Origin: an uncultured Candidatus Saccharibacteria bacterium
GTDB lineage: Bacteria; Patescibacteriota; Minisyncoccia; Phycocordibacterales; SBAW01
Assembly: GCA_964424235.1 (NCBI GenBank)
Contig: CAYRHY010000001.1
Span: 2,830 to 66,829, forward strand
Reading direction: 5' to 3'
Length of the DNA: 64,000 nucleotides
The translations under genes and the position numbers were made by a program. Positions 3,901-55,056 of this stretch are shown piece after piece. Each line of letters starts with the position of its first letter. Positions within the stretch are counted from its first letter, which is position 1. The notes beneath the pieces are model-generated. The model was not told the origin of the DNA. It saw only the letters and a list, made by a program, of their open reading frames with translations, and searched no databases.

Positions 3901-4473
3901 CTAGAGCCCTGTAGCGCTCAGAGAAGCATTGATGATGCGCACGAGCGCGCTGCGCGTAGCATGCGCCTGCGAGAGCGTCTCTAAGGAGTAACTATCTTCA
4001 AGCAAAAATGGTGCTAATTCTGCAGAGTGCGGCACATACCCCAGACTAGCAAGAAGACGAAGCACGAGTACACACTCAAGTGCCTGAAGATCTTCAGGGG
4101 GAGCTTTTGCGAGTGCTAAAAACCCATTAACAGTGAGTGCGAAAAGTTCTGGAGACTGCTCTTCCCCACGTACCAAGCGCAAGAGCAACCGCGCAACCTT
4201 TCCCTGCCCCGCAGTAGCACCCCCCACAGCTGCAATGTGTTCGATATGCTCAACACCAGTGAGTTTCCAGTCGTGTTTACCGCGAACCAAACTATAACGC
4301 GCGAGTGTAAGCGGCTCGAGTCCATAGCGCAATTTCGACACCTCTTTGCGCGCGGAGCGCGCGGAGGCACGCACAAGCCCCAACTCCTCGGTCAGAAGTG
4401 CAATCTGTGTATTAGATTCTCCTGCGCCGCGCTTTCCTAACACCACCCCACGCGTCACGTGTATCTTATGCAT
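3901..4473 (-). CDS. recO: DNA repair protein RecO-like (short form)
   Basis: 190 aa; N-terminal OB-fold signature GVVLGKRGAGESNTQIALLTEELGLVRASARSARK resembles RecO N-terminal domain; stop overlaps ileS start region. Confidence 0.5.
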   Translation of the reverse strand: MHKIHVTRGVVLGKRGAGESNTQIALLTEELGLVRASARSARKEVSKLRYGLEPLTLARYSLVRGKHDWKLTGVEHIEHIAAVGGATAGQGKVARLLLRLVRGEEQSPELFALTVNGFLALAKAPPEDLQALECVLVLRLLASLGYVPHSAELAPFLLEDSYSLETLSQAHATRSALVRIINASLSATGL

Positions 4474-7400
4474 CCTTCTCCAGAGTCAGCGTGAAGGGAA
4501 ACGGCGCAAATGTTTTTTCACCACCCGCTTCAACCGAGATACTGTCGAGATTCGTCTCTTCAACAATAATATTCTCAAACTTCTCAAAAAACTGCTCTCC
4601 CTCTAGCGTGGTTGCGACGGTGAGGCGCGGGCGGTCAGCAATCGTGAGTTTTTCTTGCTTGCGTAAATCTTGAATAGCGCGGATAAGGTCACGCAGCAAC
4701 CCCTCTTCACGCAACTCATCGGTGAGCGTAGTGTCGAGCAGTACTTCTTCCTTCCCTGTTTTTGTATCAACACACACCTCTTTAACATTCACTTCGTCAG
4801 ACAAAATATCCAGTAGTGTGTCTTTGCTGGTGAATGATTGCTCGCCAATAGTAAGTGTCGCGAGTGGCTGGCGGATCTTTATACTTGCTTTCTCCCGCAA
4901 CTGCAGTGCTTGTGATGCTATGATGCGCACCTTTTTCATATCTTCCAGCAGTGTGCTATCTATTTTTGATGCCTCAGGCCACTGCGTCAGGTGCACACTC
5001 ACTGGGTCTTGTGAATCCTTCATGCGCTGATATAAATCTTCCGCATAAAACGGCATGACTGGAGCCATCACACGAGCGACTGTACAGAGTACATAGCGTA
5101 GTGTTGCAAGTGCTTCGTCTTTTTCCTTCCCTTCGTCTTTGAAACGATCGCGTGAACGGCGTAGATACCAGGTCGAAAGATCATCAACAAATTGCATGAG
5201 TGGTCGCGTCGCCACATCAAGTTCATACGCTTCAAACCCTGCAGTGGTATCACGGATCAACTCACCCAAACGCGAGAGCACCCAACGGTCGAGCGTATTT
5301 TCGGAAGGAGAAGATTCTACTTCCTTTTTTGAAGCATACAGCTCATAAAAGCTGCGTACATTATCAAGACGCATGAGGAGTTTTTTAGACACTTCCTCTA
5401 CCCCGCGCGCCGAGAAACGCAGATCCTCACCACGAATAACCGCTGATGAGAGGAGATAGTAGCGCATGGAGTCTGCCCCGAAGCGCTCAACCAACTCCAT
5501 AGGGTCAGGATAATTTTTTAATCGCTTACTCATTTTTTGACCATCCTCGGCGAGCACCAAACCATTCGTGACCACCGCCTTGTATGGGCTCTTTCCAAAC
5601 AATGCCACGCCAAGCACGATGAGCGAATAGAACCAACCGCGCGTTTGATCGATCGACTCAGCAATGAAGTTCGCTGGATATCCTTTCGCAAACAATCCGA
5701 AACCTCTCTTTGGGTTAAACTCATCGGTAGTGTGTGGATAGTGATGCGACGCAAATGGCATCGACCCACTTTCAAACCAGCAGTCAAACACATCAAGCAC
5801 CCGCTTCCATTCACCGCCAATAGCATCACCCAAAGGCACCTCATCAATGTACGGTCGGTGCAAATCAAGCTCAAACTTATCATTGCGCGGATAGGAAATG
5901 AATTCCAGTTCACGCCATGACGCTGGATCGAGTTTAGCCTCGTGCTTGATCTTGTGATGCGGGGTGCGGGTCGCGACCTTCTCCATTAGCCATGTCGGTA
6001 CCCCGTGCGAGACGATGAGAATATTTTTTGCAGTGTAGCGACGCTCAATGTCAAAAAGGAAATCACCCACCCGTGCATAGACCTGCGCATACGTCTCACC
6101 GCCAACCGCAGCCTTATTAAATTTGTCCGACAGTGTTGCAAAAATAGCTTGCCACTGTGCTATCGGTGCGCCATTCTTCTCGCCAAAGTGCACCTCCGCC
6201 AGGCGTGTATCGGTCATGATAGCTGACGACGCGAGCCCCAACTCTTTTGCTACGAGCTTTGCTGTTTCTTGCGCACGCGCGATAGGAGACGCAACGATCA
6301 TCGTGATGCCCGCGCCTTTAAGCTCACCTGCTGTTTTACGCACCATCTCTTTTCCTTTTTCGGTAAGATGATTTTCAATATCATTAGTCGAATTTACAAA
6401 TCCTTCGACATTACTGCGCGCTTCACCGTGACGCATCATGAAGTAGCGATTCCCGGAGCGGCGCACCATAGAGAGGAGCTCATCAACCGAGCCCACCGCT
6501 TTTACCTCTTTCGTTTTAGTGTTGCGCCACACCGGGATAGGTGCGCCCCAATAGCGGCTGCGCGAAATGGCCCAATCCGGAGCGCTCTGTAGACCATTAT
6601 TGAAACGGCCGCGCCCAATATGCTCAGGCACCCAATGGACTTTTGCGTTTTCATCAATGAGATCTTTTTTGATTTTCTGTACATCAACAAACCACGAGTT
6701 TGCTGCCCAATTTAAGAGCGGTGTGTCGCAGCGCCAACAATGTGGGTAGGAGTGTGTGAGTGTTTCGTGTTTAAAAAGTCGGCCACTGTTCTGGAGATGT
6801 TCGACAATTTTTTGATCGGTCTCTTTGTGACGACCTTTTGGTTTAACCGGAAGCCCCCCAAAATCGGTAACCGCAGGAATAAACTTCCCGTCTTCCCCCA
6901 CATGATGAATGAGCGGGATTTTTTCTTTCTGTGCTAGCTCAAGATCTTCAGCACCATACGCGGGGGCGAGGTGCACCACGCCCGTACCGTCCGTGAGTGT
7001 GACATACGGTGCGGCGTACACCTTCCATGCATGGGTCTTGTGCTTGTGGAGTGCTTCGCGGAAATAGTTAAACGGCGGTTCATACGACATCCCAACCAAC
7101 TCTGAACCCAACACTTCACCCTCTGTCTCTGCTGCATCACCAAACACCTTGGATACCAACTCTTTGGCAACCACTAAAAACTCCTCACCCACCCGCACCT
7201 TCACATACGCAGCATCTTTATTGACCGCGGCGGCAACATTGCCCGGCAAGGTCCATGGTGTCGTCGTCCACACCAACAACGATGTGCCTGGCTCATCAAT
7301 CAGCGGCAATTTTACAAACACCGCAATATCTTCAATGTCTTGATATCCAAGCGCCACCTCAAAGTTTGAAAGAGTCGTGCCGCAACGTGGACACAAGTGC

Positions 7401-8011
7401 ATCGCTTTGAATCCTTCGTATACAAGCTCACGATCATAGAGATTCTTAAACGCCCACCACACCGACTCGGTATAGGAGGCATCCATCGTTTTGTAGTCGT
7501 GTTCCATGTCGGCCCAACGACCCATGCGCGGGATGATGCGGCGCCAATCGGCCACATCTTTCATGATACTTTCGCGCGCAGCAGCATTAAATTTTGCTAT
7601 GCCATACTCTTCGATGTCGCGCTTCGATTTAAATCCAAGCTCTTTCTCAACTAGGTTTTCAACTGGGAGTCCGTGACAATCCCACCCCCACTGGCGTGCA
7701 ACATGATACCCCTGCATGGTGCGGTAGCGCGGGATAGCATCTTTGAGTGCTGACTGCAGCAGGTGGCCATAGTGGGGCAACCCGTTGGCAAATGGTGGGC
7801 CATCATAAAACACATATTCACCTTTGGGCGCCTTTTTTTGGAGCGACTGTTCAAATATCTTCTCACGGTTCCAAAACGCGAGCACTTCCTCCTCACGCGC
7901 TGCAAGCGCCGACTTCGGCTTCTCAGCCTCGTGGTGAAGCTCCTCACCCCCCTGCTTCCTGTCATCTACCATATAAAAAAGACTATACGCGAAATGAGCC
8001 TCCTTATCCAC
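4466..8011 (-). CDS. ileS: Isoleucyl-tRNA synthetase, type 2 (eukaryote-like), with an inserted histidine-phosphatase (PGAM-like) domain
   Basis: 1181 aa; YDGPPFANGLPHYGH (HIGH), WGWDCHGLPVE, editing domain, DWAISRSRYWGAPIPVW, DVFDCWFESGSMP, KMSKR. Between PIPVW (residue ~495) and DVFDCWFESG (residue ~740) lies ~190 aa with RHG (FMMRHGEARSN) and IVSHG motifs of the histidine phosphatase superfamily. Confidence 0.9.
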   Translation of the reverse strand: MDKEAHFAYSLFYMVDDRKQGGEELHHEAEKPKSALAAREEEVLAFWNREKIFEQSLQKKAPKGEYVFYDGPPFANGLPHYGHLLQSALKDAIPRYRTMQGYHVARQWGWDCHGLPVENLVEKELGFKSKRDIEEYGIAKFNAAARESIMKDVADWRRIIPRMGRWADMEHDYKTMDASYTESVWWAFKNLYDRELVYEGFKAMHLCPRCGTTLSNFEVALGYQDIEDIAVFVKLPLIDEPGTSLLVWTTTPWTLPGNVAAAVNKDAAYVKVRVGEEFLVVAKELVSKVFGDAAETEGEVLGSELVGMSYEPPFNYFREALHKHKTHAWKVYAAPYVTLTDGTGVVHLAPAYGAEDLELAQKEKIPLIHHVGEDGKFIPAVTDFGGLPVKPKGRHKETDQKIVEHLQNSGRLFKHETLTHSYPHCWRCDTPLLNWAANSWFVDVQKIKKDLIDENAKVHWVPEHIGRGRFNNGLQSAPDWAISRSRYWGAPIPVWRNTKTKEVKAVGSVDELLSMVRRSGNRYFMMRHGEARSNVEGFVNSTNDIENHLTEKGKEMVRKTAGELKGAGITMIVASPIARAQETAKLVAKELGLASSAIMTDTRLAEVHFGEKNGAPIAQWQAIFATLSDKFNKAAVGGETYAQVYARVGDFLFDIERRYTAKNILIVSHGVPTWLMEKVATRTPHHKIKHEAKLDPASWRELEFISYPRNDKFELDLHRPYIDEVPLGDAIGGEWKRVLDVFDCWFESGSMPFASHHYPHTTDEFNPKRGFGLFAKGYPANFIAESIDQTRGWFYSLIVLGVALFGKSPYKAVVTNGLVLAEDGQKMSKRLKNYPDPMELVERFGADSMRYYLLSSAVIRGEDLRFSARGVEEVSKKLLMRLDNVRSFYELYASKKEVESSPSENTLDRWVLSRLGELIRDTTAGFEAYELDVATRPLMQFVDDLSTWYLRRSRDRFKDEGKEKDEALATLRYVLCTVARVMAPVMPFYAEDLYQRMKDSQDPVSVHLTQWPEASKIDSTLLEDMKKVRIIASQALQLREKASIKIRQPLATLTIGEQSFTSKDTLLDILSDEVNVKEVCVDTKTGKEEVLLDTTLTDELREEGLLRDLIRAIQDLRKQEKLTIADRPRLTVATTLEGEQFFEKFENIIVEETNLDSISVEAGGEKTFAPFPFTLTLEKDA

Positions 8012-17449: not shown

Positions 17450-19510
17450 CTATAATCCGGCCGAGGTTTTGATAATGTTCGCTATTTGTTTGCCGTAGTC
17501 GGTGAGGATTGGTTGGCCATACTGGGTGAGTAGGTCGCCCGGATTGTTGGAGGCAAACCAGTGCCAGGCTGCAAAGCCGCTCGTGCCAATAGTGGGGCCG
17601 TAACTGGTAACCGCGCTAATCACTTGGTTGCCATTTGCATCAATTGTGGCGCCGTCAGTGGAGTTGCCAAACTCACCGACAATGACCGGGATGATCCCGT
17701 CTGCGCTGCGTATCGTTTGTGCAGCAGAGACTCCCGCATGACTACTCGGACTACCAAGCAACAGACTATTCATATAGTTTTGGTCGGTGCTCCCGTTGGC
17801 GACCCACCCGTAGAAGTGCAGATCCCAGACAACATTATGCATGGTTGCATAACTCGACTCGGTGAGCCCCGAGCCCGCACCCACCGTCTGCGGATTCCCT
17901 GCGCCCACGCCCGCCTCCAACATAACGATCGCTTGAGAGCCAGTGCCCCGAATTGCGTTATAGACACTCATCTGCTCCGCGGTGATGTTCGCCTCGTCGG
18001 CGCCATAGCCGTTTTGTGGTTCGTTCATGGTGCCAAACCACACATACGGATTATTTTTATATGCCTGCGCAAGTGAAGCGTACCACTGTGCCTCAGCCGC
18101 ATCTGGATATGCGCGAGTGAGTGGCCATGGGTGATATTCAATCTCTACTACCACGTGTTTAGCGGTTAGTGTGTTCACGATATTTTGGAAGTAGGATGGT
18201 GGTTGATAACTACCAATCGCAAAGCGCACAAAGGTGATACCTGGGAACAAGTCGAGCACCGACTGCCCGATATTTGGGTCACCAATATTAATACCTCGTG
18301 CGAAAAAGACAGTACCTTGCGGATCATATATCTTGCCATTCGCTACACGAAAGTTCCCTGTAGCTGTTGGGGTTGGAGTAGTTGGTGTGTTGGTGCTTGT
18401 TGGTGGTGTGGTCGGAGTTGTGGGCAAGTTTGGTGTAGTTGAAGTGGGTGGATTGGTACTACCAGTATTGGGAGTGGTGACTACAGCGAGCAGTGCAAGA
18501 TTTTGAAAGCGCGCTGCGCTCCAACCCAACACACCATTGTCATACTGAACCTTCCACCACGTAAGCCCACCGCGCATTACTGGACCCGCGATTATTGTCC
18601 CTGTTTGTCCCCGCGACACTTTTTTCAGTATTACCCCTTGTGCACTACTGCGCACATTTACCCGGCTCTCTATTACCCGCACCCGAGCGCCAACAGCAAA
18701 GCCTATAGGTAAAGATTGTGGAAGCTGTGGTTGCGATGGAGTTTGAGTTGGGGTTGTTGGATTGGAAGGTGTTGTAGCTGGAGTGTTTGGAATAGAGCCA
18801 GGTTGTGTTGGGTTTGCAGTGGGCTGAGTTGGTATCTGTGGCTGTGCTGGGGTTGGCGTAGTTTGTGGTTGCGAGTTGGTTTGTTGAGCCAAAGGACTTG
18901 TATTTGATCCTACCCAATAGTGACCGTCCCAGATATACCACTGATTTGTTTTTGCATCCTGCCCCCAAACAGTATTTGTTGATGCTATATATACCAGTTG
19001 TGCCGTGCCACCTCCGCCAGGTAGTGCCGATGCGTTTTGCATGACTGAGCCAACAGATGAAAGTTGCCACAGTGCGCCTGTCGCATCGACAAAAGAACCG
19101 CCGCTTGTGGGAGTGAGTACTGTCGTCCCGGTACTTTGAGTTAGTGGGCTTGATTTTGGCCCCATCCAGTAGCGACCATCCCATGTATACCATTGGCCCG
19201 ATGCCGCATCTTTGCCCCATATAGTTTTGCTCTCAGGCACATATACGAGCATCGCGGTACCGCCCCCGCCAGAAACGGGAGAATTATTTTCATAGAGCGA
19301 ACCGGCGGTCGAGAGTTGCCATACAGCACCCGAAGCATCAGTAATGGAGCCGCCGCTCGTTGGCGTCAGTATCACCTGCGATGAAGCGGCTGTCGCAAGC
19401 CGAACCCCCGGTACCGTAAGCAAGAAGAGAGTCATACTCATGCAAGCGAAAATATATGTACGCATAATCATTGAGAGTATTATCGGTAACCCCTTAAGTA
19501 TGCCATACAC
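17450..19510 (-). CDS. Secreted multidomain glycoside hydrolase family 5 enzyme: signal peptide, 2 x ~125-aa repeat domains, Pro/Thr linkers, SH3b domain, GH5 catalytic domain
   Basis: 686 aa; N-terminal signal/TM; internal duplication (VILTPTSGGSITDASGAVWQLS... / VLTPTSGGSFVDATGALWQLS...); PT-rich linkers; SH3b-like VGARVRVIESRVNVRSS...WWKVQYDNGVLGW; GH5 signatures NEP (acid/base) and GEFG (nucleophile). Confidence 0.8.
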   Translation of the reverse strand: MYGILKGLPIILSMIMRTYIFACMSMTLFLLTVPGVRLATAASSQVILTPTSGGSITDASGAVWQLSTAGSLYENNSPVSGGGGTAMLVYVPESKTIWGKDAASGQWYTWDGRYWMGPKSSPLTQSTGTTVLTPTSGGSFVDATGALWQLSSVGSVMQNASALPGGGGTAQLVYIASTNTVWGQDAKTNQWYIWDGHYWVGSNTSPLAQQTNSQPQTTPTPAQPQIPTQPTANPTQPGSIPNTPATTPSNPTTPTQTPSQPQLPQSLPIGFAVGARVRVIESRVNVRSSAQGVILKKVSRGQTGTIIAGPVMRGGLTWWKVQYDNGVLGWSAARFQNLALLAVVTTPNTGSTNPPTSTTPNLPTTPTTPPTSTNTPTTPTPTATGNFRVANGKIYDPQGTVFFARGINIGDPNIGQSVLDLFPGITFVRFAIGSYQPPSYFQNIVNTLTAKHVVVEIEYHPWPLTRAYPDAAEAQWYASLAQAYKNNPYVWFGTMNEPQNGYGADEANITAEQMSVYNAIRGTGSQAIVMLEAGVGAGNPQTVGAGSGLTESSYATMHNVVWDLHFYGWVANGSTDQNYMNSLLLGSPSSHAGVSAAQTIRSADGIIPVIVGEFGNSTDGATIDANGNQVISAVTSYGPTIGTSGFAAWHWFASNNPGDLLTQYGQPILTDYGKQIANIIKTSAGL

Positions 19511-19557
19511 AAAAAGCCGCTCTTCATTAAGCGGCTTTTTGAAATATTTTAAAAAAA

Positions 19558-26976: not shown

Positions 26977-27825
26977 CTACGGTAAAAATGGTGAAAAAGC
27001 GAGTAGGAGCGAGAATCCCACAAGCACCTTGAGGGAGAATTTAAATAACACCCTCCCCCACTGGGCGTCCAAGGGCGCATGTGTCATCGCCTTGTAGAGC
27101 CACCACCCGGTAAGCCCGAGCATCGTCAAAACAAATATCGAACCAAGTTCGCTAAAAACCCAGAGCGCCACCAGCGCGACCATAGTGCCTAAAATGTAGC
27201 CGATGATATGTTGTCGCGTTTTGCGTGCACCATGGCGCACCGCAAACACTGGCACTTTCGCGGCTGTGTACTCATGAGCTCGATAGAGCGATATTGCATA
27301 AAAATGTGCCATCTGCCAGCACACTAGCACCAAAAAAAGGAGTGCGGCGACAATATCAAAACGATTAGTTGCGGCAGTGTACCCCACCACCACAGGCACA
27401 GCGCCCGACACAGAGCCTACTAACGCACCCCAACAGGAGTATCGTTTTATAAACGTATAAAGCCCCACATAAAAAATAAAACCGATTCCCGCCACAACAA
27501 CGCTCAGCATATTTACAAACAGGAACAAAACACCAAATCCGACGACCCCCAAGAGTACTGCGAAAACAAGTGCATTTCGTACCGAAACTTCTCCCCGCAC
27601 GATCGCGCGCTTATTGGTGCGCTCCATGTGCGCATCTATGTCGCGATCAAGAATGTTGTTGCACACACACGCGGAAGCGACCACCAACCCAAGCCCCACA
27701 AGCGTTGCAAGAAAAAGCGGCAATTCGATATGCCAGCGCACCGCAAACAAAAAGCTTGCAACCGTCGTAAAGAGGTTGCCGTAGATCATACGTGGCTTGG
27801 TGAGTTCGTAGTACGCGCGCATCAT
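26977..27825 (-). CDS. cyoE: Protoheme IX farnesyltransferase (heme O synthase)
   Basis: 282 aa UbiA-family; NNILDRDIDAHMERTNKRAIVRG motif. Confidence 0.85.
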   Translation of the reverse strand: MMRAYYELTKPRMIYGNLFTTVASFLFAVRWHIELPLFLATLVGLGLVVASACVCNNILDRDIDAHMERTNKRAIVRGEVSVRNALVFAVLLGVVGFGVLFLFVNMLSVVVAGIGFIFYVGLYTFIKRYSCWGALVGSVSGAVPVVVGYTAATNRFDIVAALLFLVLVCWQMAHFYAISLYRAHEYTAAKVPVFAVRHGARKTRQHIIGYILGTMVALVALWVFSELGSIFVLTMLGLTGWWLYKAMTHAPLDAQWGRVLFKFSLKVLVGFSLLLAFSPFLP

Positions 27826-31511: not shown

Positions 31512-31550
31512 GACAAAAAACACCCAACTTTTGGTTGGGTGTTTTTTGTT
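31512..31550 (-). terminator. Palindromic A-run/stem/T-run terminator immediately 3' of tRNA-Leu
   Basis: AACAAAAAACACCCAAC-CAAAA-GUUGGGUGUUUUUUGUC on the minus strand; symmetric so could act bidirectionally. Confidence 0.45.
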
Positions 31551-49904: not shown

Positions 49905-49993
49905 CTTGTGTAACAAGTGACCGAGCCTGGCGCCCCTTCGTAGCTTTAGCGAAGTGGGGCCGAGGACACTTGAAAGTAGAAAGGGTCTTAAAC

Positions 49994-50018
49994 AAAAATC
50001 CGCCCTAGGCGGATTTTT
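49994..50018 (+). terminator. Palindromic terminator AAAAATCCGCC-CTA-GGCGGATTTTT
   Basis: 11-bp stem flanked by A-run and T-run; downstream of the tRNA-like element on + and near the dinG 3' region on -. Confidence 0.4.
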
Positions 50019-50029
50019 GTTATTTATAA

Positions 50030-50147: not shown

Positions 50148-51932
50148 TTAGCCCAACAACTTCAGTGCATCACCCTCACACTGCGCGAAGGTCAGGTCAC
50201 CACGGTACGCAGGACGCAACCACTCAGGCAGAGATGCGAAGGCGAAACGCCGGAACTGTTGTGAGATAAGGAAGGTAACCCCGATGTCCGTTTCCGAACG
50301 GATATTCCGCCCACGAACCTGAAGCAGGTCCAGCATCACGCGCCAATTCCACAGCGACCACCGACGGCGACCGAAGCGCCTCTCCTCAAAACCTGCTTGC
50401 GGGTCCGTTGGATTAGGATAACCTGGCCGGAAGCTGAAGATGATCGGAGCAATCTGCTTCGGTAGATCGATACCCTCACCATAGTTAGCGACAGTACCGA
50501 CCAAACAGTCTCCTTCGCCACAGCGGAAGCGCGTTGCGCACTGCCGGGGTGTATGCCCTTTACCATAGGAAATTGCATTAAGCCCTTCCTCGGCCGCAAG
50601 CATGAGGAAATTTTCCCGCTCATCGTTTGAAACTACGATGATAAGCGAGCGATGCCCCTTGTTAGCGAACCGCTTCGCACTCCGAGCAATGAGACGTAGC
50701 ATGCGGGTTTTATCCCGTTTCTGTCGTCCTTTCACCGAAAGATCTGCGGTATCGGTAGGTAGGTAGATGCGCGCGTTCTTGGCGGGGAATGTTGACGGTA
50801 TCGAATGATACGCACCCTTGCTCCCCGTCTCGAACGCAAATACATCTGGGTCGCTTATAGTTGCCGAGTACGCCAGTGTACGCTTGGGGAGCAGCCTGCG
50901 GATAATGGGGACAACGTAGTAGTCCCTCACTACAACGCGATACTGCACCCGTTCCCGCTCACCCATCTCCGTCTTGCCATATGCTATGACGAAGGAGAGA
51001 GGGTAGCCACGTTCAGTCGCGCCCGTGAGAGCGTATTTCAACGCGTGACGAAACCGACGCACGCTTCGCGCGATTTCCTCCAACTGCTTGAGGACTTCAC
51101 GGTCATCGTCCGCATCAAGGTCGCCGCTGCGCAACGCTTTGCGGGTATCAGCTTCGAGCGCTTCAGGGTTAACATTGCTAAGTACGTCATAAAGCCGTTG
51201 CACGTCGTCTTCTTCCAACAGTGTCTCTTGGTCCATTGCGCGGCGTTTGACAAGACTCTTCATGCGCTTGAGGAATTCCCCTAGCGTGTGACACTGCCCT
51301 GAGCCCACAGCGTTGAGTGCCTCGATACCCTTGGCAAGCTTCCAGTCGGTGAGCTCCGTTGAGAGTACTAAGCGGATGGACTGTGCCAACCGATGTGCTT
51401 CGTCTATGACCACCCCTTGCGGTTCGAATTCTTGCGAGAACAAAACCACGAAGAGGTAGAAAGCGCTGGTGCACACCACGATGCCAGTGCTTTGCTTTGC
51501 TTCGTACTTTTGTCGAAGGTACGGGCATGGCAAAGTGCCAACAGTGTGCGTCTCACCGGTCTCCTGATCCACCCGATGTGGGCAGTCAGCGAGTATTGAA
51601 CACGGGATCTCGTCTGCCTTCAACTCTTGGCCGGGGTAGTAGAGACACGGATACTCGTTACGACCGTACACAACGCTCACATCTGGATGCAGGACCTTCA
51701 CCTGCTCAGCGAGAGTTTTGTTTGGCACGACATAGAACAGGCCGTGTTTACCCAGCCGCCCGAGAGCGGTGAGGTAGGTGTAGCCAATCGCGGTCTTGCC
51801 GCTCCCTGTTGGAAGTTCTAGCACAACGACGCCATCTTCCCTGCGGAGAATGGTGAGCGCTGTGATCTGCGCATCCTTCATGGAAGGATACCGATCGATA
51901 GGGAATGACCCAATCAGATCGAGATGTTGCAT
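50148..51932 (-). CDS. dinG: Rad3/XPD-type DinG-like ATP-dependent helicase with Fe-S cluster domain
   Basis: Walker A ELPTGSGKTAIG, four-Cys Fe-S insert (YPCLYYPGQELKADEIPCSILADCPHRV...LPCPY), DEAH box VIDEAHRL, C-terminal helicase motifs; start set at MQHLDLIG with GGAGAAA SD 8 nt upstream (ORF extends to 52046). Confidence 0.8.
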   Translation of the reverse strand: MQHLDLIGSFPIDRYPSMKDAQITALTILRREDGVVVLELPTGSGKTAIGYTYLTALGRLGKHGLFYVVPNKTLAEQVKVLHPDVSVVYGRNEYPCLYYPGQELKADEIPCSILADCPHRVDQETGETHTVGTLPCPYLRQKYEAKQSTGIVVCTSAFYLFVVLFSQEFEPQGVVIDEAHRLAQSIRLVLSTELTDWKLAKGIEALNAVGSGQCHTLGEFLKRMKSLVKRRAMDQETLLEEDDVQRLYDVLSNVNPEALEADTRKALRSGDLDADDDREVLKQLEEIARSVRRFRHALKYALTGATERGYPLSFVIAYGKTEMGERERVQYRVVVRDYYVVPIIRRLLPKRTLAYSATISDPDVFAFETGSKGAYHSIPSTFPAKNARIYLPTDTADLSVKGRQKRDKTRMLRLIARSAKRFANKGHRSLIIVVSNDERENFLMLAAEEGLNAISYGKGHTPRQCATRFRCGEGDCLVGTVANYGEGIDLPKQIAPIIFSFRPGYPNPTDPQAGFEERRFGRRRWSLWNWRVMLDLLQVRGRNIRSETDIGVTFLISQQFRRFAFASLPEWLRPAYRGDLTFAQCEGDALKLLG

Positions 51933-51950
51933 GGTCTGATTTCTCCAAGG

Positions 51951-51992
51951 TGTTGTAGAAAAAGTAGCGAGCGAGACAAATGTCTCGCTCGC
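51951..51992 (-). terminator. Strong hairpin plus U-run between hammerhead A and dinG start (terminator/attenuator candidate)
   Basis: 12-bp stem GCGAGCGAGACA/TGTCTCGCTCGC followed on the minus strand by UACUUUUUCUACAACA, ~20 nt before the dinG SD. Confidence 0.4.
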
Positions 51993-52057
51993 TCCGGACA
52001 CAACGCGAGTGGGCATTAGTGCACCTAATACTGGCCTACTGCACACTTATTAAAGAA

Positions 52058-52112
52058 CTCCCGATTTCGTCCTTTCGGACTCATCAGCCGCGACACACAT
52101 CGCGATATCGGG
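52058..52112 (-). ncRNA. Hammerhead ribozyme, type III (HHR-A)
   Basis: Minus strand: CCCGAU-A|UCGCGA-UGUGUG-UCGCGG-CUGAUGA-GUCC-GAAA-GGAC-GAAA-UCGGGAG. Complete core (C3U4G5A6U7G8A9, G10.1:C11.1, G12A13A14, A15.1:U16.1, H17=A); helices I, II and III all paired. Confidence 0.75.
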
Positions 52113-52203
52113 GTTGTCGGAGAGTCCCGAAGGACTCTCCAGACCCTAACAGTACATGACTGAACACTACCAGAACGCAGATTACTCAGCAGAACAGGAT
52201 TGG

Positions 52204-52560
52204 TTACTCAGAGAAATTTGATTCCCACCGCTCACTGATTTCAACCATAAGGCGTTGGGCAGCTTGTTGACTCTTTGTTGTAATTTGCATTTGCTGAGCT
52301 GCATTGCGAGCTACAAGTACAAGAAAAATTCGTTTACCTGGAATATAGCCAATAGCCCGTGGTGTTAAGGCAGCAGCGCCTGTAAAAATCTTTCCAAACG
52401 CTACCATTGTCACATCTGGGTTATCAACCAACCAATTAGCTAATGGGAGCGCTGCGGTAATAACTGTCCTGTGTTTGTATATCTTTTTATGGCTACACAC
52501 ATGAATGGCGTGCGCACCACGGTACTGATCGTCATTCTTTAGTGGCATCTTACACTCCAT
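52204..52560 (-). CDS. Hypothetical small protein (118 aa) embedded in the structured-RNA array between HHR-B and HHR-A
   Basis: MECKMPLKNDDQYRGAHAIHVCSHKK...; ATG immediately 3' of hairpin 52574-52599; no family recognised; coding status uncertain. Confidence 0.35.
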   Translation of the reverse strand: MECKMPLKNDDQYRGAHAIHVCSHKKIYKHRTVITAALPLANWLVDNPDVTMVAFGKIFTGAAALTPRAIGYIPGKRIFLVLVARNAAQQMQITTKSQQAAQRLMVEISERWESNFSE

Positions 52561-52667
52561 TTAGACAAAGAGTGTTGGGGAGTCTTAAGACTCCCCAACC
52601 CAGACCAGACTGCACGCCACTACACCTTGCGTTTCCTGACGATACGAGAAAAGCGACATCAAAGATC

Positions 52668-52723
52668 ATCTCGATTTCGCCCTTTTGGGCTCATCAGGCC
52701 GGACACACATCCGACTATCGAAA
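52668..52723 (-). ncRNA. Hammerhead ribozyme, type III (HHR-B)
   Basis: Minus strand: UUUCGAU-A|GUCGGA-UGUGUG-UCCGGC-CUGAUGA-GCCC-AAAA-GGGC-GAAA-UCGAGAU. Same core as HHR-A with compensatory changes in helices I (GUCGGA/UCCGGC), II (GCCC/GGGC) and III. Confidence 0.75.
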
Positions 52724-52811
52724 TGTCGGAGAGCACGAAAGCTCTCCGACCCACACGCTACAAGACTGTAGTCCGCAAAAGCGCACCGCGACGCACTCAA
52801 CATTAAAGGTA

Positions 52812-52864
52812 CTTCTGTTTCATCCTTTCGGAATCATCAGGCCGGACACACATCCGACTACAGA
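52812..52864 (-). ncRNA. Hammerhead ribozyme, type III (HHR-C), possibly weakened (U10.1·U11.1)
   Basis: Minus strand: UCUGU-A|GUCGGA-UGUGUG-UCCGGC-CUGAUGA-UUCC-GAAA-GGAU-GAAA-CAGAAG. Full core, but helix II opens with a U·U; helix I identical to HHR-B. Confidence 0.6.
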
Positions 52865-53370
52865 GGCAGAGAAATTTCCCTGCCACACTTACTTAAAAGA
52901 ACGAAGGGATTGGTGGGTGAAGTTTCCAACACCCACCCCAAACTGGGCCAAACGCAACTTAAGTCTACTTAGGCCAACAGAATCAGTTGTCGAGAGACAT
53001 CACGTCTCTCGACCCAAACAGTACCCTAGACTGCTCTAGCAGGCGGGAGCGAGGTGGACTGAGCCCTTCAGTAGTGAACTGCATTAGGTTGTCGGGAGAT
53101 AAAGATTCCCGACCCGAACCGGTCCTGACGCGAGCACACTGTTGTCTGCGCTTGCAATATTGAACCTTTCAGCAACAGCTGTCGGGAAGCCTTACGGCTC
53201 CCCAACCCATAGACCTGCATAACGAAGGGGACGCTGCTGAGCCCTTCTGTACTGGAGCAAACGACTCCTCGGTGCAAAAGTTTGTCGGAGAACTCAGAAA
53301 AGTCCTCCCATCTGAACCGCGGCATTTAGCTCCAGACCACTCGGCACAAAGCCGAGGAAAGCCTGACAGC

Positions 53371-54057
53371 TTAGGCCGCCAGCTTCACCTGCTGCTCCAT
53401 CTCGATGAAGTCAGTCACCCGGAACCGGCCGAACGGGCCGCGCTTACTGGGACGGAAATCTCCGAGACCGGAAAAGCGTCCGGCCGCATTGAACAGCTCC
53501 TGCACCTTCTCGATGGCGATCTGGTCGTGGTCAACCTCGATCGTGACGTCGAATGCCCAGGTCGGGAACTTTGGCCGCACGATGGCGACCGCCGCCCCGT
53601 TTGCTGCCAGCACGCCGCGACGCTTGTCGGCAATCCACTTCACCTCCGACTGGTTGAGGAACGGGATGAACCCGTCGCCCTTGTCGTCGATGAGGTCCGA
53701 CACAATCGAAAGGAATGCCGGTACCAGCGAGGATTCGCGTGTGGACACCTTGGTCTTCTTGTCGAAGATTATGTGCCGACCAGCATCCACGAGTGCAGCA
53801 AACAAATAGTTGGCTGGGAAGCCGAACTCTTTATTTGGTCCGAGACACAGCTTTTCCTTAGCCATGTCTTCTATTGACTGCTCCTTGGGCGGCTTACGCT
53901 TGCCCGCCGAGCCGTAGATCAACTCGTCCAACACTGCGTCGGTCATGGGGTTCTGCAGCATGGGCGAGATGCCCGCGCAGCTTACCAAGTACGTGCCGAT
54001 GCCGCTCTTCACGCTGGACTTCTGGTTGCTATTTGCCGAAGCTAGGGACTTGGCCAT
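53371..54057 (-). CDS. Hypothetical protein (228 aa) with glycine-rich C-terminal loop, first gene of the island
   Basis: Strong SD GGAGG 5 nt before ATG; sequence ...AGRFSGLGDFRPSKRGPFGRFRVTDF near the C-terminus resembles the G-rich loops of RAMP-type RNA-binding proteins. Resemblance only; no confident family. Confidence 0.55.
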   Translation of the reverse strand: MAKSLASANSNQKSSVKSGIGTYLVSCAGISPMLQNPMTDAVLDELIYGSAGKRKPPKEQSIEDMAKEKLCLGPNKEFGFPANYLFAALVDAGRHIIFDKKTKVSTRESSLVPAFLSIVSDLIDDKGDGFIPFLNQSEVKWIADKRRGVLAANGAAVAIVRPKFPTWAFDVTIEVDHDQIAIEKVQELFNAAGRFSGLGDFRPSKRGPFGRFRVTDFIEMEQQVKLAA

Positions 54058-54100
54058 ATGGCCCTCCGTAGGTTAGTTGTTACCGGAACAGCCAAAACAG

Positions 54101-54117
54101 GCCTCCGAAAAGGAGGC
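54101..54117 (-). terminator. Hairpin GCCTCC-GAAAA-GGAGGC between rpsT and the 228-aa gene (rpsT terminator candidate; -35/-10-like TTGACA...TATAGC just upstream on the minus strand)
   Basis: 6-bp GC stem with U-tracts on both sides; minus-strand TTGACA-N15-TATAGC precedes it. Confidence 0.35.
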
Positions 54118-54155
54118 TATATTAAAATTTGTTTTTTGTCAATAAATGTGTCGCT

Positions 54156-54398
54156 TTACGCCTTAAGGAGTTTGGCGATCTTTGCCTTGCGGCGAGCGGC
54201 GGTATTCTTCTTTATAATGCCGCGTTTGAGCGCCTTATCGATCGCCTTGTAGGCAGCGCTCAGTGCCACCTTGTCGCCCTTAGGAGCGAGGCGTGCTGTC
54301 TTGGTTGCTGCGCGCACAGCCTGCTTACGCACTTGATTCATAGTGCGCTTGCGCAGTGACTGGCGGTGAGCCTTTTTTGCACCTTTGGTAATTGCCAT
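54156..54398 (-). CDS. rpsT: 30S ribosomal protein S20
   Basis: 80 aa, Lys/Ala/Arg-rich MAITKGAKKAHRQSLRKRTMNQVRKQAVRAATK... typical S20. Confidence 0.85.
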   Translation of the reverse strand: MAITKGAKKAHRQSLRKRTMNQVRKQAVRAATKTARLAPKGDKVALSAAYKAIDKALKRGIIKKNTAARRKAKIAKLLKA

Positions 54399-54477
54399 AT
54401 GTGCGGGACACTATAGCAACATTTTCCCCATAGCGCAATAACTGGCTACCTTGGGGCGGGCACGGTAAGCTAGAGTC

Positions 54478-55056
54478 ATGATAGGTAAACTCACCGGCAC
54501 CCTCGACTCGCTTGAGGCGGGCCAGGCGCTCATCGACGTCTCGGGGGTGGGATATGTGGTCCGGGTGCCTACGGGATTTCAGAGCCTCCTCCCCCAAGGA
54601 GCTCGGGTGACTCTCTTTATATACACCGCGGTGCGCGAAGACGCGATCGATCTGTATGGCTTTACCAGCACAGAAGAGCTTGGGTTCTTTAAACTCCTGA
54701 TGGGTGTTTCCGGTGTGGGCCCTAAAACAGCGCTCGGCATCATGAGTGTTGCTGACGTGCTCTCGCTCAAACGTGCAATAGCGAAGGGTGACGCCGCAGC
54801 GCTCACCTCTACCTTTGGTATCGGCAAGAAAAGTGCAGAGCGCTTAGTGGTCGAGTTGCGCGATAAAATTAAACTACTGCCAGAGACTACTCCTGAAGCG
54901 ACTTCGGATGCTGACGTGATCGAAGCGCTCCAAGGTCTTGGCTATAGTGCAACTGAAAGCCGCAAGGCGCTGCGCGACATCTCCCCCGCTCTTGTGGGAA
55001 CGCGTGAGCGTTTAGCCGCCGCACTGCGCACTTTAGGAACCAACACAGCAGTATGA
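54478..55056 (+). CDS. ruvA: Holliday junction DNA helicase subunit RuvA
   Basis: MIGKLTGTLDSLEAGQALIDVSGVGYVVRVP, HhH motifs GVSGVGPKTALGI / GIGKKSAERL. Confidence 0.85.
   Translation: MIGKLTGTLDSLEAGQALIDVSGVGYVVRVPTGFQSLLPQGARVTLFIYTAVREDAIDLYGFTSTEELGFFKLLMGVSGVGPKTALGIMSVADVLSLKRAIAKGDAAALTSTFGIGKKSAERLVVELRDKIKLLPETTPEATSDADVIEALQGLGYSATESRKALRDISPALVGTRERLAAALRTLGTNTAV

What the first reader, a model, noticed from the sequence alone, without database searches (positions are those of the whole stretch)
52058..52864. Three type-III hammerhead ribozymes with covarying helices, encoded on the minus strand between a 228-aa gene and a DinG-like helicase gene
Reading the minus strand, positions 52058-52112, 52668-52723 and 52812-52864 each contain the full hammerhead catalytic core in canonical order. 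That order is helix III 5' strand, U16.1, H17(=A), cleavage site, helix I hairpin with a UGUGUG loop, CUGAUGA, helix II hairpin with a GNRA-like loop, GAAA, then helix III 3' strand. Helix sequences differ between copies but stay paired (I: UCGCGA/UCGCGG vs GUCGGA/UCCGGC; II: GUCC/GGAC vs GCCC/GGGC; III: CCCGAU/AUCGGG vs UUUCGAU/AUCGAGA vs UCUGU/ACAGA), which is the signature of a selected RNA structure. Several pairs are U·G on the minus strand and would be A·C on the plus strand, which fixes the transcribed strand. Copy C opens helix II with U·U and may be attenuated. Cleavage would cut the transcript just upstream of dinG (HHR-A) and on either side of a ~610-nt segment holding a 118-aa ORF (HHR-B / HHR-A).
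Basis: seen in the sequence. Interest (0 to 1): 0.85.

Follow-up and report, generated by a model that had tools for sequence, protein, structure and literature searches.

The report
Hammerhead ribozymes in VIPR guide array
The three self-cleaving hammerhead RNAs are very probably real, but they belong to a larger, recently described RNA-guided system (VIPR) made of a Cas7-like protein gene, about eight guide-like RNAs built from 5-base repeats and a DinG-like helicase gene, so they most likely cut guide RNAs and messenger RNAs apart.

Summary
Three type III hammerheads lie on the minus strand at 52113-52058, 52725-52667 and 52866-52812, with complete cores. Rfam scores them below its gathering threshold. 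A covariance model built only from 148 other members of the same subtype scores them 70.6-72.1 bits; the next-best hit in the window scores 13.9. Six syntenic genomes carry intact hammerheads at the same places.

The "228-aa gene" is a homologue of Vipr, the Cas7-like protein of VIPR systems (2026 preprints). Its profile matches PDB SUSP1 Vipr at E=2.8e-10, the residues that read the guide motif are conserved, and the predicted fold is a RAMP fold.

The 1.4 kb between this gene and the helicase gene holds about eight vrRNA-like units. Each has 7-12 tandem pentamers (Y-N-N-N-G/C) followed by a tail hairpin. Every hammerhead abuts a hairpin; for two of the three it is a vrRNA tail. The helicase best matches a model of type IV-A CRISPR-associated DinG.

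The preprint already describes "hammerhead ribozyme-interspersed" vrRNA arrays and helicase accessory genes. This locus is therefore a new member of a known kind, in a relative of Candidatus Kaiserbacteria. Cleavage, guide function and targets remain untested, and no target was found.

The parts
   Evidence: A profile of 30 homologues hits PDB 36pp_D 'SUSP1 Vipr protein' at E=2.8e-10 over the full length. Thumb R138 aligns with invariant R161, and G-loop D177-W178-R179 aligns with D200-F201-R202. The AF2 model has pLDDT 83.8. Foldseek matches Csm3/Cas7 RAMPs at E about 1e-5, probability 1.0. It also matches phrog_4652 at E=3.6e-14.
53181..53271 (-). vrRNA-like unit v1 (degenerate pentamer tract plus tail hairpin 53206-53181)
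   Evidence: 9 of 13 pentamers fit Y-N-N-N-S in the register set by the hairpin. The hairpin stem is 11 bp.
53091..53148 (-). vrRNA-like unit v2 (short tract of about 7 units plus tail hairpin 53113-53091)
   Evidence: The weakest of the eight units.
52989..53073 (-). vrRNA-like unit v3 (12 pentamers plus tail hairpin 53013-52989)
   Evidence: 12 of 13 units fit Y-N-N-N-S. It is one of the top period-5 tracts in the window.
52912..52982 (-). vrRNA-like unit v4 (9 pentamers plus tail hairpin 52937-52912)
52865..52884 (-). Alpha-type hairpin abutting HHR-C, with no pentamer tract of its own
   Evidence: The same hairpin type precedes the CUGU-type hammerheads in relatives.
52812..52866 (-). HHR-C: type III hammerhead that opens helix II with U10.1.U11.1; cleavage at 52859|52858
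   Evidence: RF00008, 34.1 bits; 70.9 bits.
52725..52805 (-). vrRNA-like unit v5 (11 pentamers plus tail hairpin 52750-52725), bounded on both sides by hammerheads
   Evidence: The centroid fold of the 143-nt product between cleavage sites C and B shows the ribozyme hairpins, an unstructured tract and the tail hairpin.
52667..52725 (-). HHR-B: type III hammerhead; cleavage at 52716|52715
   Evidence: (72.1 bits).
52574..52649 (-). vrRNA-like unit v6 (10 pentamers plus tail hairpin 52599-52574)
   Evidence: It has the strongest 5-nt G periodicity in the whole window on either strand, 10 of 10 pentamers in phase.
52204..52548 (-). Conserved small protein (114 aa from the ATG with a GGAG Shine-Dalgarno sequence; 118 aa from the first ATG at 52560); candidate accessory gene of unknown function
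   Evidence: tblastn finds matches of 42-48% identity at the same position in 5 of 6 syntenic loci, partial (58 aa) in L226. It has no Pfam, PHROG, PADLOC, NCBIfam or PDB match.
52115..52199 (-). vrRNA-like unit v7 (11 pentamers plus tail hairpin 52144-52115)
52058..52113 (-). HHR-A: type III hammerhead; cleavage at 52106|52105
   Evidence: (70.6 bits).
51955..52043 (-). vrRNA-like unit v8 (10 pentamers plus a 12-bp GC-rich hairpin 51993-51966 followed by a T-run; terminator-like)
   Evidence: Relatives have a comparable GC-rich last hairpin before the helicase gene.
50148..51932 (-). DinG/XPD-superfamily helicase (594 aa from the ATG at 51932 with a GGAGA Shine-Dalgarno sequence); candidate vap accessory gene
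   Evidence: Pfam Helicase_C_2, DEAD and ResIII. PADLOC typeIV_DinG (CAS-IV-A associated) at E=3.6e-32 over the full length. No NCBIfam family is above its cutoff. It lies next to a vipr homologue in all six syntenic loci and in L172, where the helicase is 49% identical.

Best explanation
The locus 54057-50148 (minus strand) is a VIPR system with a hammerhead-interspersed guide array. A vipr gene encodes a Cas7-like RAMP. It is followed by about eight vrRNA-like units, a small conserved gene embedded in the array, and a DinG-like helicase gene.

Each vrRNA-like unit is a single-stranded tract of 7-12 pentamers, Y-N-N-N-G/C. By analogy with the published system, one Vipr protomer binds each pentamer and the variable positions specify a DNA target. 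Each tract ends in a tail hairpin.

The three type III hammerheads are transcribed as part of this long RNA and cleave themselves after A17. HHR-B and HHR-A cut 9-12 nt downstream of the tail hairpins of v5 and v7. HHR-C cuts 6 nt downstream of a hairpin that has no tract of its own.

Cleavage gives the upstream RNA a defined 3' end with a 2',3'-cyclic phosphate just past its hairpin. It gives the downstream RNA (the next guide or the next mRNA) a 5'-hydroxyl end that starts flush with the helix I hairpin. The ribozymes thus separate guides from each other and from the mRNAs of the small gene and the helicase, without a Cas6-like protein.

Shown here: the ribozyme architecture and its conservation, Vipr homology, the pentamer code, the tail hairpins and the gene neighbourhood. 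Inferred: transcription as one unit, actual self-cleavage, Vipr binding, DNA targeting and the role of the helicase.
For: Hammerheads.
- All three have complete cores and three helices.
- The descriptor finds 3 copies, against 0 in 100 shuffles.
- 231 of 239 pattern matches in viral and prokaryotic collections fold into the same architecture.
- On 148 distinct family sequences, 96% of cells are paired. The covariation score is 0.91, against 0.21 for shuffled partners and 0.06-0.11 for slid partners.
- The window copies score 70.6-72.1 bits on that model.
- All six syntenic loci carry 2-4 strong (>=40 bits) hammerheads on the same strand between the vipr homologue and the helicase gene. Their helices and loops differ between genomes.

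VIPR.
- The Vipr profile hits the solved SUSP1 Vipr at E=2.8e-10. The residues that recognise the GGY motif are conserved.
- The predicted fold is a RAMP fold.
- The pentamer code Y(88%)-N-N-N-S(89%) holds over 49 tails x 12 units in seven genomes. It is in phase in 62% of units, against 0-17% out of phase.
- The strongest period-5 G signal in the window lies between HHR-B and the next tail hairpin.
- 6 of the 10 best tracts in the window fall in this 1.3-kb locus, each abutting a tail hairpin. Shuffled windows give 2.7 tracts on average.
- The tracts do not align between genomes, whereas the tails and ribozymes do. This fits hypervariable guide positions.

Published description (10.64898/2026.04.26.720920).
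- vrRNAs have 9-16 pentamer repeats and a structured 3' tail.
- The methods name a YNNNG repeat variant and require at least four repeat units.
- The text describes "hammerhead ribozyme-interspersed arrays", confirmed by small-RNA sequencing.
- Accessory genes of types III-V encode nucleases or helicases.

Other support.
- The helicase best matches a type IV-A CRISPR DinG model.
- The centroid fold of the 143-nt product between sites C and B has an unstructured tract and a 3' tail hairpin.
Against: - No experiment on these sequences exists. Self-cleavage, transcription and Vipr binding are all inferred.
- Rfam's curated hammerhead models score all three copies below their gathering scores.
- The pentamer consensus is looser than the canonical YNNGG: position 4 is G in only 37% of units, and position 5 is C in 26%. 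Units v1 and v2 are degenerate. TRF does not report the tracts.
- Only three of roughly eight unit boundaries carry a hammerhead. The ribozymes therefore cannot be the only maturation activity. By themselves they release only v5 as a small RNA, and v8 only if the terminator-like hairpin works.
- A type III ribozyme leaves a 47-nt ribozyme body on the 5' end of the downstream guide.
- No target was found. There were no exact 20/20 matches in viral contigs for v3, v5, v6 and v7.
- The same hammerhead subtype is common in phage and CPR genomes that have no pentamer tracts and no Vipr homologue nearby. The ribozyme is therefore not specific to VIPR.
- The VIPR type could not be assigned, because the preprint's figures and data tables are not held.
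Confidence: 0.8

Rival explanations
1. The hammerheads are general-purpose intercistronic processing elements that cut a polycistronic mRNA into the messages for the 228-aa protein, the small protein and the helicase. This is essentially the first reader's view. Their position next to guide-like units is incidental.
For: - The same subtype is widespread in viral contigs and CPR genomes. There it is mostly intergenic, co-oriented with the flanking genes, and often about 20 nt upstream of a Shine-Dalgarno sequence and ATG. Those loci have no pentamer tracts and no Vipr homologue.
- In relatives, a hammerhead sits directly upstream of the start codon of the small gene (L226, L227, L231) or of the helicase gene (L226 at 35 nt, L230 at 40 nt).
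- Perreault et al. 2011 showed tandem hammerheads flanking single genes and cleaving in vitro.
Against: - In the window, all three ribozymes directly follow a hairpin, and each is followed by another guide-like unit rather than by a start codon.
- Hairpin type and ribozyme type are inherited together across genomes.
- The preprint reports ribozyme-vrRNA arrays supported by small-RNA sequencing.
- The two roles are not mutually exclusive. Only the claim that the guide context is incidental is disfavoured.
Confidence: 0.12
2. The hairpin-and-pentamer units are not guide RNAs. They would be a lineage-specific repeated element (REP-like, or a series of terminators or attenuators), and the RAMP-like protein would have another role. 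The hammerheads would then be processing or selfish elements within that repeat.
For: - The pentamer consensus is loose.
- No targets were found.
- Copies within a genome are somewhat more alike than copies at the same position in other genomes (0.80 against 0.71 identity). This is what spreading repeats would show.
- The genes flanking the cassette differ in all seven genomes.
Against: - The register, the unit number (about 10-11), the invariant Y and the random positions 2-3 match the published vrRNA design, including a repeat variant named in the preprint.
- The units occur only next to a gene whose product conserves the residues that read that motif.
- The genome's ordinary terminators look different: a GC-rich hairpin followed by a T-run.
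Confidence: 0.05
3. Paired hammerheads excise the 610-nt segment between HHR-B and HHR-A (v6, the small gene and v7). Its 5'-OH and cyclic-phosphate ends are then joined into a circular RNA, as happens in viroid-like RNAs and retrozymes.
For: - HHR-B and HHR-A share the CGAU/AUCG core of helix III, so a hybrid ribozyme could form across the junction.
- In L227 and L229 the two flanking ribozymes are also of the same type.
Against: - In L226, L228 and L231 the flanking ribozymes are of different helix III types, so the feature is not conserved.
- Perreault et al. looked for circular or spliced products of tandem bacterial hammerheads and found none.
- No ligase gene is evident in the locus.
Confidence: 0.02
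4. The hammerhead motifs are decaying, non-functional relics.
For: Scores on the curated Rfam models are below threshold. Copy C has a U.U mismatch at the most conserved pair of helix II.
Against: - Among the 25 hammerhead hits in seven genomes (3 window, 22 in relatives), the core departs from consensus only at the variable position 7 in two copies and by an A6a insertion in three L231 copies.
- Helices keep pairing through compensatory changes.
- U.U is a recurrent, tolerated natural variant.
Confidence: 0.01

Closest known systems
VIPR systems with hammerhead ribozyme-interspersed vrRNA arrays (bioRxiv 10.64898/2026.04.26.720920, fig. S19; structures in 10.64898/2026.04.26.720927)
   Same: - A Vipr homologue with the conserved residues that read the guide motif.
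- Guide-like RNAs made of tandem pentamers with two random positions, followed by a structured 3' tail.
- Hammerheads between units.
- An adjacent accessory gene encoding a helicase.
- A compact locus on a single strand.
   Different: - The repeat unit is the looser Y-N-N-N-G/C form rather than YNNGG.
- The tail is a simple hairpin rather than the SUSP1 pseudoknot.
- Only 3 of about 8 unit boundaries carry a ribozyme.
- A conserved 114-aa gene is embedded inside the array.
- The host is a CPR bacterium related to Kaiserbacteria.
- The VIPR type could not be assigned, and no target was found. Nothing in this locus has been tested experimentally.
Tandem hammerheads flanking single genes in prophage regions of bacteria (Perreault et al. 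2011, PMC3088659)
   Same: Several hammerheads lie on one strand a few hundred nucleotides apart and flank a short gene. Natural U10.1.U11.1 variants occur. The proposed role is processing of a long transcript.
   Different: Those examples were mostly type II or pseudoknotted forms in prophages, and no guide-RNA context was known. Here the ribozymes are type III with a UGUGUG loop 1 and an NAAA loop 2, and they abut hairpins of a VIPR array.
Rfam RF00008 Hammerhead_3
   Same: The same catalytic core, the same three-helix type III topology and a comparable size of about 55 nt.
   Different: Scores are 34.1 and 17.8 bits against a gathering score of 48.5; copy B hits only HH9, at 23 bits. The cleavage triplet is UA rather than GUC, and the short loops are fixed.
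Type IV-A CRISPR-Cas (Cas7-type Csf2 filament, Cas6-type processing, CasDinG/Csf4 helicase); comparison from general knowledge
   Same: A RAMP protein that coats a guide RNA is combined with a DinG-family helicase. The best defence-library match of the helicase is PADLOC typeIV_DinG at E=3.6e-32 over the full length.
   Different: There are no CRISPR repeats or spacers and no Cas5, Cas6, Cas8-like or adaptation genes. The guides are pentamer repeats. Processing is apparently by ribozymes. NCBIfam Csf4 matches only weakly (E=2.5e-5, 22.7 bits against a cutoff of 400).
Cas6-type crRNA maturation, and synthetic ribozyme insulators such as RiboJ (from general knowledge)
   Same: The logic is the same: cut a multi-unit precursor at fixed sites next to a hairpin, which leaves units with defined ends.
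   Different: The cut is made in cis by RNA and not by a protein. The type III geometry leaves the ribozyme body on the downstream product.

Membership tests
Hammerhead ribozyme, type III | Conserved core in canonical order: C3 U4 G5 A6 N7 G8 A9, then G12 A13 A14, an A15.1-U16.1 pair, and H17 not G | tested here: met
   All three copies have CUGAUGA ... GAAA, U16.1 and A17.
Hammerhead ribozyme, type III | Three helices around the core. Helices I and II are closed by loops and helix III is open, which defines type III | tested here: met
   Helix I has 6 bp. Helix II has 4 bp (3 bp plus U.U in copy C). Helix III has 5-9 bp. The minimum-free-energy folds reproduce this junction.
Hammerhead ribozyme, type III | Helices maintained by compensatory changes among relatives | tested here: met
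   On 148 family sequences, 12 of 15 pairs show changes on both sides. The covariation score is 0.91, against 0.21 and 0.06-0.11 in the two controls. Copies at the same position in six genomes differ in their helices but still pair. Caveat: the sequences were pre-filtered for helices I and III, but the filter removed only 8 of 239.
Hammerhead ribozyme, type III | Score at or above Rfam's gathering threshold for a hammerhead model | tested here: not met
   34.1, 23.0 and 17.8 bits against gathering scores of 48.5 and 52. This reflects the composition of the Rfam seed alignments. It is not a missing core feature.
Hammerhead ribozyme, type III | Site-specific self-cleavage that yields 2',3'-cyclic phosphate and 5'-OH ends | not testable with these tools
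   It needs in vitro transcription or end-specific RNA sequencing.
VIPR system | A Vipr protein: a minimal RAMP with an RRM core, a G-loop and a thumb | tested here: met
   The profile hits SUSP1 Vipr (36pp_D) at E=2.8e-10 over residues 16-203. R138, D177, W178 and R179 align with R161, D200, F201 and R202. The predicted fold matches Cas7/Csm3.
VIPR system | vrRNAs made of at least 4 tandem pentamers (YNNGG or a related NNNGG, YNNNG or NNNNG unit) with hypervariable inner positions | tested here: met
   There are eight tracts of 7-12 units in the window. Six are clean and two (v1, v2) are degenerate. The consensus is Y-N-N-N-S with random positions 2-3 over 49 units from seven genomes. The tracts do not align between genomes. 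The consensus is looser than the canonical unit.
VIPR system | A conserved, structured 3' tail after the repeat tract | tested here: met
   Alpha- and beta-type hairpins of 8-13 bp follow each tract in a fixed register. The tail is a plain hairpin. No pseudoknot was tested.
VIPR system | A minimal locus with an accessory vap gene that acts on DNA; in types III-V it encodes a nuclease or a helicase | tested here: met
   A DinG/XPD-type helicase gene lies downstream on the same strand in all seven genomes and in L172. A second conserved small gene is also present.
VIPR system | Assignment to one of the seven types by Vipr phylogeny | not testable with these tools
   The preprint's tree, figures and data tables are not held. 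From its text, ribozyme arrays are shown for types I and V, and helicases or nucleases occur in types III-V.
VIPR system | vrRNAs are expressed, bound by Vipr and direct DNA recognition by the 1-nt skip rule; natural targets lie in mobile elements | tested here: inconclusive
   Expression and binding cannot be tested here. The target searches gave nothing above chance. However, only exact matches could be searched in collections, and the pairing rule for the YNNNG variant is not published.
CRISPR-Cas type IV-A | A CRISPR repeat-spacer array with Cas6, Csf1, Csf2 and Csf3 genes alongside the DinG helicase | tested here: not met
   No direct-repeat array was found. No other Cas protein matched in the locus. 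Only the helicase resembles a type IV-A component.

The most novel reading that the evidence does not exclude
The pairing of a minimal Cas7-like Vipr with a CasDinG-like helicase, kept together as a cassette across a clade of CPR bacteria, would be a sister or precursor of type IV-A CRISPR-Cas. In it, cis-acting hammerheads do the job that Cas6 does in CRISPR systems. The embedded 114-aa protein would be a new accessory factor. In addition, the hammerheads may serve chiefly to uncouple guides from the mRNAs of the accessory genes within one transcript. That would give bacterial hammerheads a concrete and testable function.
Probability: 0.2. Interest if true: 0.8.

Novelty: new member of a known kind. 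Interest (0 to 1): 0.5.

Why it matters
The biological role of genomic hammerheads in bacteria has been open since 2011. A 2019 review (PMC6765202) still calls most of them functional orphans.

This locus puts three hammerheads in a defined job. They sit beside hairpins of an RNA-guide array that belongs to a system first described in 2026. The locus therefore offers a compact construct of about 4 kb in which ribozyme-dead mutants can be scored for guide maturation, accessory-gene expression and silencing.

The work also shows three further things:
- A large and coherent hammerhead subtype (UGUGUG loop 1, NAAA loop 2) is missed at Rfam's thresholds. I found it in 106 viral loci and at least 119 prokaryotic loci, mostly Patescibacteria.
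- VIPR cassettes with a DinG-like helicase are conserved in relatives of Kaiserbacteria.
- The helicase is closest to type IV-A CRISPR DinG models, which bears on the proposed evolutionary link between VIPR and CRISPR.

Tried and rejected
1. Phage origin. No DNA match was found in the phage collection. The window carries cellular housekeeping genes: IleRS, RuvA, a FolC-like ligase and Pol I.

2. My first working model was a conserved housekeeping operon processed by hairpin-ribozyme modules that stabilise mRNA ends. I dropped it once the 228-aa protein proved to be a Vipr homologue and the hairpins proved to be vrRNA tails. The genes flanking the cassette also differ in all seven genomes.

3. 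Is the ribozyme subtype specific to VIPR? No. The 175 other non-redundant family members tested show no enrichment of pentamer tracts upstream. No Vipr homologue lies near them, except in L172.

4. Other ribozyme classes, or a degenerate fourth hammerhead, in 52850-54500. None was found.

5. The 85-aa ORF at 53325-53068 overlaps units v1 and v2. Its only cross-genome match is a 36-nt DNA motif, so I treat it as spurious.

6. Targets. Exact 1-nt-skip patterns for v3, v5, v6 and v7 gave no hit in viral contigs. A search allowing mismatches, under skip rules 0 to 3, over 1.9 Mb including the window gave only chance-level matches and no self-target.

7. TRF does not detect the pentamer tracts.

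8. Annotation of the small protein failed. The profile gave no PDB hit, and there was no Pfam, PHROG, PADLOC or NCBIfam hit.

9. Exact look-ups of the window's own proteins found no contig, so the source record and organism name were not obtained. Taxonomy rests on the helicase homologues named Candidatus Kaiserbacteria or Patescibacteria.

10. No sigma-70-like promoter was found in 51700-54500, so the transcription unit is inferred only.
Full report
1. THE OBSERVATION

Read on the minus strand, positions 52113-52058 (A), 52725-52667 (B) and 52866-52812 (C) each show the same layout. The order is helix III 5' strand, U16.1, A17, a 6-bp helix I closed by UGUGUG, CUGAUGA, a 4-bp helix II closed by GAAA or AAAA, GAAA, then the helix III 3' strand.

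The motif is more than chance would give. CTGATGA-N8-30-GAAA occurs three times in both strands of the window, all of them here. A full three-helix descriptor finds these three copies and nothing else, against 0 hits in 100 shuffled windows. Minimum-free-energy folds of the minus strand give the three-way junction for all three copies.

Rfam finds no hammerhead at gathering score. With permissive filters, copy C scores 34.1 bits on RF00008 (threshold 48.5), copy B gives a partial HH9 hit of 23 bits, and copy A scores 17.8 bits and is misaligned. The comparative evidence below shows that it is a sensitivity problem.

2. THE RIBOZYME FAMILY

The genome hits are mostly Patescibacteria: Saccharibacteria, Paceibacteria and Kaiserbacteria. 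Of 239 matches, 231 have a complete helix I and a helix III of at least 3 bp. The 8 failures agree with my estimate of about 17 chance hits in the genome collection.

On 148 distinct 55-mers the alignment is gapless. Ninety-six percent of cells are paired. Twelve of 15 pairs show changes on both sides. The covariation score is 0.91, against 0.21 for shuffled partners and 0.06-0.11 for slid partners. A1.6 is invariant although the pattern did not require it, and loop 2 is NAAA in at least 90% of sequences.

About 30% of these sequences open helix II with a mismatch, mostly U.U as in copy C. Perreault et al. 2011 had already reported natural U10.1.U11.1 hammerheads, and noted that U.U is the best-tolerated mismatch at that position.

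A covariance model built from these non-window sequences scores B, C and A at 72.1, 70.9 and 70.6 bits. The next-best hit in the window scores 13.9 bits. Because the family was collected with a pattern derived from the window copies, the core and loop letters match partly by construction. The helices do not.

Across the wider family the ribozymes are mostly intergenic and co-oriented with their neighbours. They are preceded by a hairpin in about 45% of cases, against 8% for shuffled sequence.

3. THE GENOME AND ITS RELATIVES

The window is a bacterial chromosome. It carries IleRS, RuvA, a FolC-like ligase, Pol I and seven tRNA genes, and it has no phage DNA match. Homologues of the helicase are named Candidatus Kaiserbacteria or Patescibacteria. 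Homologues of the 228-aa protein share contigs with them, judged by matching contig lengths.

I retrieved six syntenic loci, L226-L231, in which the helicase is 60-77% identical to the window's. Each has 2-4 strong (>=40 bits) hammerheads on the gene strand between the 228-aa homologue and the helicase gene. Four of the six also have at least one hit downstream of the helicase gene's start: strong in L228 and L231, weak in L229 and L230. Helices and loops differ between genomes.

The 118-aa ORF is a real gene. tblastn finds matches of 42-48% identity in five of the six loci, partial (58 aa) in L226, always between the same two genes.

The genes flanking this three-gene cassette differ in every genome. 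In L228 a large serine recombinase lies downstream. The cassette therefore behaves as a unit and not as part of a fixed housekeeping operon.

4. THE TWIST

A profile of the 228-aa family matches one solved structure over its full length: "SUSP1 Vipr protein" (36pp_D, E=2.8e-10). Vipr is the protein of the Viral Interference Programmable Repeat systems, described in two 2026 preprints.

As those preprints describe it:
- Vipr is a minimal Cas7-like RAMP that polymerises on vrRNAs.
- vrRNAs are about 100 nt long and consist of 9-16 tandem pentamers followed by a structured 3' tail.
- In each pentamer a conserved GGY alternates with two hypervariable bases.
- The variable bases pair with DNA, skipping one target base per unit.

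In the alignment to SUSP1 Vipr, the residues that the structure paper shows to read the motif are conserved. Thumb R138 aligns with invariant R161. G-loop D177-W178-R179 aligns with D200-F201-R202. An AlphaFold2 model (pLDDT 83.8) matches Csm3/Cas7 RAMPs by Foldseek at E about 1e-5, probability 1.0.

The preprint also reports three points that bear directly on this locus:
[quoted passage not shown] - Accessory vap genes of types III-V encode nucleases or helicases.
- Some types use NNNGG, YNNNG or NNNNG units, and a candidate vrRNA needs at least four units.

5. TESTING THE DEFINING RNA FEATURE

An unbiased scan for 5-nt periodicity puts the strongest signal of the whole window, on either strand, at 52576-52670 on the minus strand. 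Ten of 10 pentamers there have G in phase. That is between HHR-B and the next hairpin.

When the register is anchored on each hairpin of the locus and of the six relatives, the 50-65 nt upstream resolve into tandem pentamers. Over 49 hairpins x 12 units the positions are:

| Position | Content |
|---|---|
| 1 | Y in 88% |
| 2 and 3 | essentially random |
| 4 | G in 37% |
| 5 | G in 63%, C in 26% |

The register is sharp: 62% of units fit YNNNG in phase, against 0-17% out of phase. The Y signal fades after about 10-11 units.

In the window, six of the ten tracts with at least 8 of 9 units in phase lie in this 1.3-kb stretch of the minus strand, and each abuts a hairpin. The other four are scattered, in line with 2.7 per shuffled window. 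The hairpins of this family occur nowhere else in the window and differ from the genome's ordinary terminators. Between genomes only the hairpins and ribozymes align, not the tracts, as expected for hypervariable guide positions.

6. THE MAP (MINUS STRAND; CALL 88)

In 5'-to-3' order:
- vipr, 54057-53371
- v1 (tail 53206-53181), v2 (tail 53113-53091), v3 (tail 53013-52989), v4 (tail 52937-52912)
- a hairpin without a tract, 52884-52865, then HHR-C
- v5 (tail 52750-52725), then HHR-B
- v6 (tail 52599-52574)
- the small gene, 52548-52204
- v7 (tail 52144-52115), then HHR-A
- v8, whose hairpin 51993-51966 is followed by a T-run
- the helicase gene, 51932-50148

Units v1 and v2 are degenerate.

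HHR-B and HHR-A begin 0 and 1 nt after the tails of v5 and v7. Their cleavage sites lie 9 and 12 nt past the tail hairpins. HHR-C overlaps the last two bases of its hairpin and cuts 6 nt past it.

Two linked module types recur across genomes:
- A GGGGCRGRG-type hairpin followed by a CUGU/ACAG helix III. Copy C is of this type.
- A GGUYGGRAG-type hairpin followed by a CGAU/AUCG helix III. Copies A and B are of this type.

Hairpin and ribozyme are therefore inherited as one unit.

Cleavage alone would release only v5, as a 143-nt RNA. Its centroid fold shows the ribozyme hairpins, an open tract and the tail hairpin. It would also release v8 if the terminator-like hairpin works. The other boundaries need another activity.

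In relatives, some hammerheads lie directly upstream of the start codon of the small gene or of the helicase gene. Separating guides from mRNAs is therefore probably part of their role.

7. THE HELICASE

- Pfam sees Helicase_C_2, DEAD and ResIII.
- PADLOC's typeIV_DinG model (CAS-IV-A associated) matches over the full length at E=3.6e-32, far better than any Cas3 model.
- NCBIfam places it in no curated family and gives only weak partial hits, including Csf4.
- The PDB gives only marginal XPD hits.

It is a divergent DinG/XPD-type helicase. Its resemblance to CasDinG is suggestive but not established.

8. WHAT IS NOT SHOWN

Transcription, self-cleavage, Vipr binding and targeting are all inferences. 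No promoter was detected. No target was found. There was no exact 20/20 match in viral contigs for four guides. The VIPR type cannot be assigned without the preprint's tree and tables.

The ribozyme subtype is not specific to VIPR. Other family members show no pentamer tracts and have no Vipr gene nearby, L172 excepted.

9. VERDICT

What they belong to is a VIPR system with a hammerhead-interspersed guide array and a DinG-like accessory helicase. That architecture was published in outline in 2026, so this locus is a new member of a known kind.

It remains a useful one:
- It gives bacterial hammerheads a concrete and testable job.
- It exposes a large hammerhead subtype that Rfam's thresholds miss.
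- It pairs a minimal RAMP with a CasDinG-like helicase in CPR bacteria.

Noticed in passing
window 4466-8011 (-): The isoleucyl-tRNA synthetase-like ORF (1181 aa) has a complete histidine-phosphatase domain (Pfam His_Phos_1, residues 524-704, E=5e-33) inserted between the two halves of its class I synthetase domain.
   Followed up: no
L001-L225 (viral and prokaryotic loci): The type III hammerhead subtype with a UGUGUG loop 1, an invariant A1.6-U2.6 pair and an NAAA loop 2 is abundant. I found it in 106 viral loci and at least 119 genome loci, mostly Patescibacteria. The window's three copies score below Rfam's gathering thresholds. About half of the viral copies open helix II with U.U or A.A.
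   Followed up: partly
window 52057-52046, 52666-52655 and 52811-52800 (-); also after tails and hammerheads in L226-L231: A T-rich box, (G)TTCTTT or CTCTTT, follows each hammerhead within 1-4 nt. It also follows many tail hairpins that have no hammerhead. It may be the conserved first unit or 5' handle of the next vrRNA. CTTT is enriched after CPR hammerheads in general: 33 of 108, against 7 of 108 in controls.
   Followed up: partly
L229 4799-4868 and 7126-7195; L230 4892-4961 and 7165-7234; L231 3726-3781, 6981-7036 and 7744-7799: Variant hammerheads occur in relatives. Some carry a long GC-rich insertion in helix I or helix II. Three identical L231 copies have an extra A in the core (CUGAAUGA, an A6a insertion), a variant that Perreault et al. 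2011 reported as slow.
   Followed up: no
window 53068-53325 (-): The 85-aa ORF overlaps vrRNA-like units v1 and v2. Its only similarity to relatives is a 36-nt DNA motif around the hairpin at 53122-53109. It is probably not a gene.
   Followed up: partly
L228 7057-8328 and the flanks of L226-L231: The genes flanking the vipr, small-gene and helicase cassette differ in all seven genomes. In L228 a large serine recombinase (Resolvase and Recombinase domains) lies just downstream. This suggests that the cassette moves.
   Followed up: no
window 27250-27299 (+): A weak hammerhead-like hit (13.9 bits, E=0.059) has a degenerate core, CUCAUGA ... GAUA. It is probably chance.
   Followed up: no
window 49991-50021, 31512-31550 and 19510-19541: Long perfect palindromes with an A-run, a GC-rich stem and a T-run look like bidirectional intrinsic terminators between convergent genes. 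They differ from the hairpins of the VIPR array.
   Followed up: no
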